Source: Botryllus schlosseri
Taxonomy: Eukaryota
Direction: 5' to 3'
NCBI GenBank assembly: GCA_051294905.1
Contig: CM119372.1
Span: 14,262,001 to 14,326,000 of the forward strand
Length of the DNA stretch: 64,000 nt
In this document: piece after piece, positions 2,039 through 33,569 of the stretch
Layout: each line of letters begins with the position of its first letter
Position numbering within the stretch: the first letter of the stretch is position 1
Notes under the pieces: generated by a model
Database searches by the model: none
What the model saw: the letters and a program-made list of their open reading frames with translations, nothing else
What the model was told of the DNA's origin: nothing
Program-made: the position numbers and the translations under genes

Positions 2039-5000
2039 GTGGCGATATTTCAGCAATGACCTCGTTCCACAACGCAGAGTTTTTGGCATTGTAAGACGTC
2101 GTTGTTCTTAACGTAACTCTCCTCTGAATCCCATTCAAGTTCATATAATTGTTATTCTCACGGTAAGGCAGCCACCGTCGAAAGCCCTTTGAATTCGGGT
2201 CCCTGCACAAGGAAAATGCCATCGTGAAAATGGATGTTGTTACATCAGAGATCACCAACTTCAAGGTATATGTTACACACTACAGAATGGGATTGGCTAC
2301 TGGTGAGAGCTCTACCCAGAAGAAAATTAAGGATCTTTTGCATATGTAGGCATTGTATGGTCTCACTAAAGGCAAAACAGAGCTAATCTTCTTCAAGGCC
2401 TGATTCAATAGAAGCATATACTTGGATGGATATCCAGTAGCAATATGCCAATCACATTTCTTGAAGAGAAAATTAAATGCTTGTTACCATGGTGCCGCTG
2501 AGTCATGGTGCCGCTGAGTCTCGAATATAAATAGTACACAAAATCCAAAGATCTCATACCCAGATCGAGCGAAGTTGCTCCAATATGCCATTAGCTGCCG
2601 GCTAAATTCTCTGTCATCGTCTGTGAATTTATCTGGTGATGTCATAGGCAAACCGAAAACATATGAAATCTCATCGCCATGCACACCTCCCAGCCAGGAG
2701 GGAGTTTGTGAACCGTCAAGATGTGAGGAAGGTTTGCTTAGAACGTATTGGTACATTGATCCATTCTCAGACCTGAAATCATAAAATACTAACTTGCAGT
2801 TTGTTGTTAGAGTTAAAGGTGGGTAATCACTAATCACACAGCAGCATAATGGGTCATGGCAGCAATGATTATAATTTTAACATTTTAATACCACAATACT
2901 GTTATACAATCAAAAGATAGGTAAGTGTAGCAACAACTTGGATCATTCTTTGAAATCTGACCAGGGATATATAGAGCTCTATATAGTTCTATATATCCCA
3001 GAATCTGACACCCACTTGGGGCTTGGCAATGTTAAGAGGAGACATGCGCTCTGAACGAAAAGTGAAAGAATATATCATAAATGGACTAGCGACAAAATGA
3101 AGTGGGATGTGACCAATGTTCCCTTCAATTTTTGTGGAGTCTGCGCGCACTCACCAACTCCCTGCGCGGTCCCTTGGACAACAGTGCGTAACGACTGAAA
3201 AAATAGGGTGATCACTTCGGATTTTCTGTGCGCAGCGACCGTGTCAAAACTGCGCAATTGCGCACATGCGCAGCTGAGAGGAAACATTGGATGTGACTTA
3301 ATTAGCAGTTGTCAAAATAATCACTGATACCGCAACCGAATATGAGGAAGCAGAGCATAATAATTTCACCAAAGCAGTACTTTCCAAGGAAAGTGTGACG
3401 ACACAAACAAAAATGACACCACAATCTCAAAGTAAAAAAATCGGCAAGATCTCTCTTACCTATAAATGGTTTTCTACTTCACAGAATCCCATGCACAGGA
3501 TTTTAATTCAGTAAAAAATGTCCTTTTCTTGTACAATTGAGTCGTTTTGGGAAGCATATGTATAAACAATTGGCACATGCTGTATTACCATTTCGCAACG
3601 CTCGTTTATCACACAGTTATACTTGACTCATACCGGCGGTGTCTGATTGCATACCATTTTCTCATGAGCTTATGCATTATGATCACCTTTCGATAATTTT
3701 GCTCGCAAACAAAAATGCAACATTATAATTGGTCACCTCATTTTTACATCCAAGTCCCGAGCTGACGCAGCTTGAAACATCATATCGGTGTAATACAACA
3801 CGACCGATTCATTGCTGACACTTTCATCATCCATATTTTGCCATGGCGTGTAGGAATGTACCAACAAATCACCGGTCCGACCGTGCATACTGTTCCTGTT
3901 GTCACCCGTGTAGCGATATGTCTGACGAATTGCCTCGTCCAGAGAAATATCTCGGGCGAGTGAATTCTAGATGGGACAAATACATTCAGCAGGGCGCTTG
4001 ATCCAGCGCATTGCAAATATTCATCAGTGTTATTGCAGGTATTGCAGTAGATTTTTAAAACTCAGACGTGGATCTCGCTCTACAAAGTTTGAGCCCGCAG
4101 GTAAGCTTCAACAATTTTTCTTCATCTTCAGTAAAGTTTCACGGACCCCTTAGAATCAGACTTGGGCAACTAGATAATTCTAGTTTTCTAATCAGAATAA
4201 TTAGAGCAAAATGCCTTCAATCTAATTCCAATCTACCGCGTAATTTGTGAAATGCTTGTATGTTTCTGGTCTTGCCGAAAAAGCCACAAGAGAACTGTAT
4301 AGCGCGAAATGTGGTGTACAGACATTTGTCATTCCCGTGCTGAAGAGAGTGAACTGTGAAATGATATGAAGTAAACTTAGTTTTTGTTGTGTATCTTTTC
4401 AATTTGTATTCTAATTCAATCTCAGAGTTTTTGCGAATTCAGTAATTGTCATTCTAATATAACTTGGGAATAAACTGTGCAAGTGTGCATCTATAATTCT
4501 AATTTTAATTTAATCTGGAAACTTCTGCTTACAAATAGTTATCGGACCACCAAGGGGATCATAAGCGCTAGTTTAAGAACCCCTGGGCAAGTTAGAATGT
4601 AAGACTGTCCTTAATTTGTAATCCACATCGACACCACCCACAAATAAAAGCCTACGTTGACAACCTCCGCATGTCGAAAACGCGACTCACTTCCAAGTCA
4701 ACGTAAAATTCATGACTCGCGGTCCCAGAGATGAAATCAAACGCCGCGGCAGCCATAAGACTATCAACGTCGGTTTCGGGGATCAACTCCCCGTCTTTCC
4801 TCAGTCGCCACGCTCCCCAGTTATTGTACGTTTCGTCATATGAGGGTCCGGTAGGGGCGTGGTATGGAAACGCCGATAGCAGATCTTCAGCCGACATTGA
4901 TTTCAGACAAGTAGCCAACTCGCTGCCGTTAGGAGAACATCCTGTAGCCGACGCGATTGTTTCATCGGAGTGACTGTCCGTGCAGTCGTGTTCGTAAAAC

Positions 5001-33569: not shown

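What the first reader, a model, noticed from the sequence alone, without database searches (positions are those of the whole stretch)
2560..33200. Dead-active-active-dead layout with complementary catalytic lesions in the outer domains
Seen by motif alignment. D1 keeps GESAG (32063-32077), but the oxyanion WIHGGG is WIHPTD, the GxNxxE acid is GINDFG and the His motif is GARIGEE (~24810). D2 has WIYGGG, GESAG, GHNSMEG (Glu 19801-19803) and SNHLRE (His 16125-16127). D3 has WIHGGG, GNSAG, GANDGDG and GAGHTSE. D4 has WIHGDD and GHGSG (5893-5907, Gly at the nucleophile elbow) but keeps GTASHE and GVHGDE. Known: non-catalytic ChE-like domains act in adhesion (neuroligin, gliotactin) or as folding/dimerisation modules (thyroglobulin ChEL). 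Inference: each enzyme is paired with a pseudo-enzyme that may act as an intramolecular dimer partner, chaperone or ligand-binding module. The intact frames suggest the dead domains are maintained rather than decaying.
Basis: partly seen in the sequence, partly recalled or inferred. Interest (0 to 1): 0.78.

Follow-up and report, generated by a model that had tools for sequence, protein, structure and literature searches.

The report
Four-domain esterase, outer domains dead
This gene, likely from a sea squirt, encodes four esterase domains in a row on a predicted membrane anchor; the first and last lack key catalytic residues, and comparison with relatives suggests the last domain lost activity long ago while the first likely lost it recently and separately in two gene copies.

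Summary
Observation confirmed. They fit one 34-exon frame of 2,233 aa without stops. Spliced contigs join D2 to D3. A transmembrane exon lies just outside the window, so the protein is a predicted type-I membrane protein of about 2,296 aa.

D4 lacks the nucleophile in 3 of 3 Styela clava four-domain relatives, and all 9 database proteins with this anchor signature end in a dead domain. D1 keeps its triad and oxyanion hole in those 3 relatives. A paralogue in this genome also has a dead D1, by a different lesion (Ser to Gly), and a single origin is rejected (p-AU 0.007). Stand-alone dead D1 copies show dN/dS of about 0.28.

So the 'complementary' lesions are not a conserved design, and enzyme/pseudo-enzyme pairing is unshown. 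Likely: a surface esterase string with an ancient dead membrane-proximal domain and a tip domain inactivated twice. No activity was tested. The scan noted this same stretch before; no such esterase on other DNA was among the 8 notes shown.

The parts
33510..33569 (-). Start codon and predicted signal peptide (about aa 1-20)
   Evidence: ATG at 33569 and hydrophobic N-terminus; the cleavage site is read by eye
24247..33569 (-). Domain D1, exons 1-6 (aa 1-558): carboxylesterase fold, predicted inactive, recently lost
   Evidence: 45% identical to Styela P0133 D1, which is intact
33180..33188 (-). D1 oxyanion-hole glycines replaced (P128-T129-D130)
32069..32071 (-). D1 Ser208, nucleophile retained
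31691..31693 (-). D1 Gly334 at the triad-acid column (Asp in the relatives)
24816..24818 (-). D1 Ile460 at the triad-His column (His in the relatives)
15061..24188 (-). Domain D2 and first part of the D2-D3 linker, exons 7-18 (aa 559-1131): triad S770/E884/H1003 and GGG intact
   Evidence: 64% identical to P0133 D2; spliced contigs
14211..15060 (-). 850-nt intron whose removal joins D2 to D3 in frame; one contig of one run reads on into it unspliced
   Evidence: joint in 3 of 4 runs (X9 with 123 nt on the short side, X1 and X2 with 26); X8 has a matching 9-nt loose end and also an unspliced contig to 14586
7904..14210 (-). Domain D3, exons 19-27 (aa 1132-1675): triad S1338/D1457/H1568 and GGG intact; Asn before the serine
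   Evidence: 55% identical to P0133 D3
7842..7903 (-). 62-nt intron between D3 and D4
   Evidence: phase 0 on both sides; not seen directly in RNA; supported by colinear orthologues and contig length
2039..7841 (-). Domain D4, exons 28-34 (aa 1676-2231): predicted inactive, loss shared with all Styela relatives
   Evidence: 44% identical to P0133 D4
5899..5901 (-). D4 Gly1892 at the nucleophile position
2037..2038 (-). Splice donor towards the last exon, which lies outside the window (L001 8811 to about 8615, minus; G000:C2 about 14,260,615-14,260,811) and encodes a 65-aa tail with one hydrophobic segment

Best explanation
The gene encodes one chain of four carboxylesterase-type domains with a predicted single membrane anchor; the two inner domains likely hydrolyse esters at the cell surface or in a lumen, the membrane-side domain D4 is likely an old non-catalytic support, and the outer domain D1 is likely a former enzyme recently turned into a non-catalytic binding domain. 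Shown: the motifs, the open frame, the D2-D3 splice, the colinear orthologues and the residue states. Inferred: topology, activity of D2 and D3, inactivity of D1 and D4, two separate losses in D1, and the roles of D1 and D4. The domains probably lie head to tail like beads on a string, not as two obligate enzyme/pseudo-enzyme pairs. D4 would hold, fold or dimerise the ectodomain next to the membrane, as the dead domain of neuroligins does (recalled). D1, at the far tip, would keep its fold and surface for binding a partner or ligand.
For: One frame of 2,233 aa. The D2-D3 joint is in 3 of 4 runs, and one 1,380-nt contig spans 7 exon pieces across it. A 3,798-nt contig has the length predicted for D3-D4-anchor ending 20 nt after an AATAAA signal. 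Styela P0133 is colinear at 51% over the whole chain; P0131 and P0134 are at 43-44%. D4 has Gly at the nucleophile in 3 of 3 Styela four-domain proteins, while D1 is intact in all 3. All 9 of 303 database proteins that hit the anchor profile end in a dead domain (5 active-dead, 3 active-active-active-dead, 1 active-dead-dead). They come from Styela, two starfish and a hemichordate. The C5 paralogue in this genome has D1 with GSGAG and HPG but keeps its acid and His. Window D1 groups with P0133 D1 (SH-aLRT 99) and C5 D1 with P0131/P0134 D1 (97); one clade of dead D1s is rejected, p-AU 0.007. The two stand-alone Ser-less D1 copies have dN/dS 0.28 (bootstrap 0.20-0.40, 323 codons). Window D1 keeps 48 of 56 core columns.
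Against: No activity or binding was measured. Window D1 changed at 8 deeply conserved columns against 0 in its closest relative P0158 (p 0.008), which also fits simple relaxation. dN/dS could not be computed for window D1 or D4 themselves, because no close DNA orthologue was at hand. The tree does not place D4 with the starfish/hemichordate dead domain or with neuroligins; both groupings are merely not rejected (p-AU 0.39 and 0.43), so the deuterostome-wide age of D4 rests on the anchor signature and layout. Only one other ascidian species has full-length relatives here. The D1-D2 and D3-D4 joints and the last exon were not seen directly in RNA. One contig suggests a shorter D1-D2 transcript or an unspliced one. 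C5 sequences were pieced together from tblastn hits; its D2 row holds intron-derived residues.
Confidence: 0.55

Rival explanations
1. D1 has no role of its own. It is a redundant third enzyme that lost its active site and persists only because it lies in frame ahead of D2-D4 and must still fold.
For: Four active-site changes in D1 (two oxyanion glycines, acid, His). Eight changes at deeply conserved columns against 0 in P0158. D1 keeps only 66% of Styela-conserved columns against 83% (D2) and 77% (D3). All-active multi-domain esterases are common (30 AA, 10 AAA, 6 AAAA among 123 proteins), so spare copies exist.
Against: D1 lost activity separately in both four-domain paralogues, both with Pro at the first oxyanion glycine. 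Stand-alone dead D1 copies are under purifying selection (dN/dS 0.28), although these belong to the C5 lineage and not to the window gene.
Confidence: 0.25
2. One reading: D1-D2 and D3-D4 are two intramolecular enzyme/pseudo-enzyme pairs, and the dead member acts as dimer partner or chaperone for its neighbour.
For: The D2-D3 linker is long (65 aa from the conserved last Trp to the next domain's first strand) against 32 (D1-D2) and 36 (D3-D4), which divides the chain into two halves. An active-dead pair plus anchor is the whole protein in starfish and a hemichordate. One contig may be a D1-D2-only transcript. Lactase uses its profragment as an intramolecular chaperone (PMC6412902, passages).
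Against: D2 has an intact D1 beside it in 3 of 3 Styela relatives, so a dead partner is not required. The lesions are not complementary in the C5 paralogue. Dead D1-type genes stand alone. From recalled cholinesterase geometry, about 17-24 free linker residues are short for reaching from one subunit's C-terminal bundle helix to the partner's N-terminus (inference, not measured).
Confidence: 0.15
3. D1 is still an enzyme with a changed chemistry: it keeps Ser208 and the GEE motif after the His column and uses another base.
For: The serine and its elbow are intact although three other parts of the site changed.
Against: No His, Lys or acid sits in the His or acid columns. The oxyanion loop begins with Pro. 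The paralogue and the stand-alone copies lost the serine itself.
Confidence: 0.05

Closest known systems
Styela clava uncharacterized LOC120344729 (XP_039269975; P0133), and paralogues LOC120335133 (P0131) and LOC120335102 (P0134)
   Same: Four colinear esterase domains, signal peptide, dead D4, same anchor signature; 51% and 43-44% identity.
   Different: Their D1 keeps Ser, Asp, His and the glycine oxyanion loop. They end in S-x-L; the window's predicted tail does not. No function is annotated.
Two-domain active-dead membrane esterases of Asterias rubens (P0007), Acanthaster planci (P0008, P0168) and Glandiceps talaboti (P0010, P0176)
   Same: Dead domain next to the membrane and the same pre-anchor signature.
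   Different: Two domains only; the dead domain has lost His as well; orthology of the dead domain to D4 is not resolved.
Neuroligins (also gliotactin and neurotactin, recalled)
   Same: Non-catalytic cholinesterase-like domain followed by a membrane anchor. D4 shows the same pattern as the neuroligin-like rows P0221 and P0225: Gly at the nucleophile, Glu and His kept. Neuroligins are the top solved-structure hits.
   Different: Neuroligins have one domain and no enzyme domains; the tree does not nest D4 among them.
All-active tandem carboxylesterases (fish ces2b models, amphioxus, oyster, Aplysia models); multi-carboxylesterase proteins in Johnson and Moore 2012 (PMID 22210164)
   Same: Several esterase domains in one chain.
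   Different: All domains keep the triad; no C-terminal hydrophobic segment in the two checked (P0125, P0121); separate tandem expansions. Some may be annotation fusions (not checked). The paper was not held: I saw its reference line and one citing sentence in PMC12992692; its content on multiple carboxylesterase domains is recalled.
Carboxypeptidase D and lactase-phlorizin hydrolase (architectural analogues, not homologues)
   Same: Type-I membrane hydrolases with tandem domains, some non-catalytic. CPD domain III, next to the membrane, is inactive and needed for full viability in flies (PMC5683605, passages). The lactase profragment is an intramolecular chaperone (PMC6412902, passages).
   Different: Other folds and chemistries; dead domains at one end only.

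Membership tests
Carboxyl/cholinesterase family (Pfam COesterase PF00135) | Profile match above the curated cut-off | tested here: met
   6 of 6 exon peptides, covering all four domains, score 47-139 bits against a cut-off of 27
Active carboxylesterase (D2, D3) | Ser-acid-His triad and glycine oxyanion loop | tested here: met
   D2 S770/E884/H1003; D3 S1338/D1457/H1568; GGG in both
Active carboxylesterase (D1, D4) | Ser-acid-His triad and glycine oxyanion loop | tested here: not met
   D1 lacks acid, His and the glycines; D4 lacks Ser and two glycines
Active carboxylesterase (any domain) | Measured ester hydrolysis | not testable with these tools
   Needs an assay
Acetyl/butyrylcholinesterase | Choline-binding Trp in a long first disulphide loop (feature recalled) | tested here: not met
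   The loops before the EDCL motif are 13-15 aa long and hold no Trp in any of the 4 domains
Neuroligin | Single non-catalytic domain before the anchor | tested here: not met
   Four domains, two with full triads
Neuroligin | D4 falls in the neuroligin clade | tested here: inconclusive
   Not grouped in the free tree; grouping not rejected, p-AU 0.43
Neuroligin | Neurexin binding and four-helix-bundle homodimer | not tested
   No D4-D4 job was run; needs a structure or binding assay
Thyroglobulin | Tg1-3 repeats ahead of a ChEL domain | tested here: not met
   The chain consists of four esterase domains only; ChEL rows form their own clade; the AU test for D4 plus ChEL did not finish
Deuterostome multi-esterase membrane family (defined here; no published name found) | Pre-anchor signature and a dead membrane-proximal domain | tested here: met
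   Tail exon matches the Styela tails at E 2e-11 to 3e-10; 9 of 9 database members end in a dead domain

The most novel reading that the evidence does not exclude
An undescribed deuterostome family joins esterase enzymes to a neuroligin-like dead domain and membrane anchor. In this ascidian lineage the outermost enzyme domain was converted into a binding or adhesion module twice in parallel and then spun off as stand-alone receptor-like genes: the birth of neuroligin-type pseudo-enzymes caught in the act, with active orthologues as controls.
Probability: 0.3. Interest if true: 0.75.

Novelty: new variant of a known kind. Interest (0 to 1): 0.52.

Why it matters
How non-catalytic cholinesterase-like proteins (neuroligins, thyroglobulin ChEL) arose from enzymes is hard to study, because the known cases are ancient. 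Here a recently inactivated domain has intact orthologues at 45-59% identity, two independent lesions and stand-alone copies under selection, so loss of catalysis and gain of binding can be tested directly. The family itself, esterases on a dead membrane-proximal domain, has only 'uncharacterized' database entries. If D1 is merely decaying, the case shrinks to an ordinary lineage-specific loss in a multi-domain esterase.

Tried and rejected
Separate tandem genes: rejected. D2 starts 58 nt after D1's last exon and D4 62 nt after D3's, without room for a signal peptide; the D2-D3 joint is seen in RNA and the orthologues are colinear.

Secreted protein ending at window 2030: less likely than splicing to the anchor exon. 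A second possible acceptor for that exon was mis-indexed and remains untested.

Complex prediction of D3 with D4 of the Styela orthologue P0133: no answer, score 0.00, alignment not used.

First read-laying: repeats filled the joint table (338 rows not shown), so the D1-D2 joint was not listed. Depth arithmetic on one contig (about 349 nt against 350 predicted) is only indirect. The raw-read runs X13 and X17 (6% and 13% read) had no depth on most exon bins. The run search listed no holder on record as RNA; the contig runs are treated as RNA because they skip introns.

Search for shorter D1 relatives: 5 weak hits among 2,773 candidates, no further ascidian D1. No structure of the window's own domains was predicted, so the mapping to Torpedo S200/E327/H440 is by family alignment and recalled numbering.

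Literature: 8 full-text searches; by titles and abstract starts none describes this gene or family. Subscription papers and supplements were not seen and may bear on this, above all Johnson and Moore 2012. PMC12992692 (abstract and passages) and bioRxiv 10.1101/2025.06.18.660348 (passages) concern thyroglobulin-like proteins, not this one.

Full report
Observation. The window is eukaryotic DNA with an intron-rich gene on the minus strand. Six of six exon peptides match Pfam COesterase above the cut-off. A 34-exon model from 33569 to 2030 gives 2,233 aa with no internal stop; 32 introns are GT-AG and one is GC-AG. Aligned with triad-intact esterases, D2 and D3 have complete triads (Glu in D2, Asp in D3) and glycine oxyanion loops. 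D1 keeps Ser208 but has Gly at the acid column, Ile at the His column and P-T-D in the loop. D4 has Gly at the nucleophile and G-D-D in the loop but keeps Glu and His.

One gene. The doubtful junction was D2-D3, across 850 nt. Contigs of 3 of 4 runs join 15061 to 14210; only X9 has more than 31 nt on both sides, and its 1,380-nt contig spans seven exon pieces. The fourth run has a matching 9-nt loose end and also one contig that reads unspliced to 14586, which may be a D1-D2-only isoform or pre-mRNA. All 8 joints listed in 12200-16400 match the model. Of 27 base differences inside exons, 17 are silent. One contig matches the summed lengths of exons 11-14 exactly (629 nt). The D1-D2 and D3-D4 joints were not listed directly. 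They rest on 58- and 62-nt in-phase introns, on colinear orthologues and on contig lengths.

The Styela relatives end in a hydrophobic segment. Their tails match an exon about 1.2 kb beyond the window's start (E 2e-11 to 3e-10). Splicing from 2039 to L001:8811 adds 65 aa with one hydrophobic segment. A 3,798-nt contig has the length needed to end 20 nt after an AATAAA signal there. The predicted product is a type-I membrane protein of about 2,296 aa with a short cytoplasmic tail.

Relatives. The best match is Styela clava P0133 (51% over the chain; D1 45, D2 64, D3 55, D4 44%), then P0131 and P0134, so the host is likely an ascidian (inference). Each window domain is nearest to the same-numbered Styela domain. 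Multi-domain esterases are common in databases, with up to eight domains, and mostly have all triads. Among the 122 database proteins scored with the window's by Ser and His, none shared the dead-active-active-dead pattern (many rows are fragments). Nine of 303 database proteins hit a profile of the pre-anchor region; 7 of the 9 were its seeds. All nine end in a dead domain: two-domain forms in two starfish and a hemichordate, and three- or four-domain forms in Styela. The signature occurs five times in this genome: here, three times on C5 and once on C4.

Two different histories. D4 lacks the serine in all three Styela four-domain proteins and in the C5 paralogue, so that loss predates the split from Styela and the gene duplication. 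Whether D4 is the orthologue of the starfish dead domain, or akin to neuroligins, is unresolved (p-AU 0.39 and 0.43). D1 is intact in all three Styela proteins. The C5 four-domain paralogue (G000:C5:4,668,860-4,710,600) has intact D2 and D3 motifs and a D1 with GSGAG and HPG that keeps its acid and His. It too is dead-active-active-dead, but by another lesion. Window D1 groups with P0133 and C5 D1 with P0131/P0134; forcing the dead D1s together is rejected (p-AU 0.007; quick tree, 46 rows chosen from 78). An unnamed fragment, P0158, is sister to window D1 and still has Ser and Asp; its His region is missing. Two losses in this lineage are therefore the simplest reading.

Selection. Two stand-alone D1-like genes on C5, with Ala at the nucleophile and each followed by an anchor exon (the second 16 kb away), have dN/dS 0.28 (0.20-0.40, 323 codons). 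Against C5 D1 the value is about 0.1 with dS near saturation. Window D1 keeps 48 of 56 family core columns, D2 55, D3 51 and D4 40. Relative to P0158 it changed at 8 of 56 deeply conserved columns and 20 of 37 variable ones (p 7e-5), but P0158 changed at none of the conserved ones (p 0.008). D1 is constrained but less so than before. An open frame alone proves nothing, because downstream domains need it.

Mechanism. Most likely (0.55), D2 and D3 are surface or luminal esterases, not cholinesterases, since no domain has the choline-binding Trp loop (feature recalled). D4 would be an old structural or dimerising domain at the membrane, and D1 a recently inactivated tip domain kept for binding. 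Carboxypeptidase D offers a precedent for a needed dead domain next to the membrane (PMC5683605, passages), and lactase for a chaperone-like N-terminal part (PMC6412902, passages).

Novelty. Multi-carboxylesterase proteins of invertebrate deuterostomes are known (Johnson and Moore 2012, recalled; not held), and the Styela orthologues are in RefSeq as uncharacterized. Eight searches of the open literature listed nothing on this membrane family or on the residue states. New here are the anchor-defined family with a dead membrane-proximal domain and the double loss in D1. Everything on function is predicted. Verdict: real, a new variant of a known kind, interest 0.52.

Noticed in passing
G000:C5:4,628,400-4,710,600 (L007-L014, L018): Cluster of a second four-domain gene (dead-active-active-dead) and two stand-alone Ser-less D1-like genes with anchor exons.
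   Followed up: partly
G000:C4:10,756,600-10,796,900 (L002-L006): Colinear match to Styela P0142 (active-dead-dead plus anchor); first esterase domain has GESAG; the others were not read in detail.
   Followed up: partly
window 14586-15183: One contig reads through the D2-D3 donor; the frame then stops at about 15031, which would give a soluble two-domain D1-D2 form.
   Followed up: partly
window 14027-15184: The D2-D3 linker is about twice as long as the others and holds Cys1112 and Cys1153; cysteines at like places appear in the C5 paralogue.
   Followed up: no
P0131, P0133, P0134, P0142 C-termini: All four Styela proteins end in S-x-L, like a class I PDZ-binding motif (recalled); the window's predicted tail does not.
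   Followed up: no
window 43315-44439 (-): 374-aa frame that looks like a serpin (label recalled, not searched).
   Followed up: no
window 54358-55182 (-) and 63159-63515 (+): Frames that resemble an RRP8-like methyltransferase N-terminus and a VPS41-like exon (labels recalled, not searched).
   Followed up: no
window 6636-6950, 27700-28251, 20672-21668: Two long inverted-repeat elements and a 1-kb repeat shared with 59208-60373 lie in introns.
   Followed up: no
P0124-P0127, P0125/P0130, P0121-P0123, P0132, P0180: Database models with 5-8 esterase domains in fish, amphioxus and oysters (triads intact), and all-dead multi-domain ones in a flatworm and an unnamed source.
   Followed up: no
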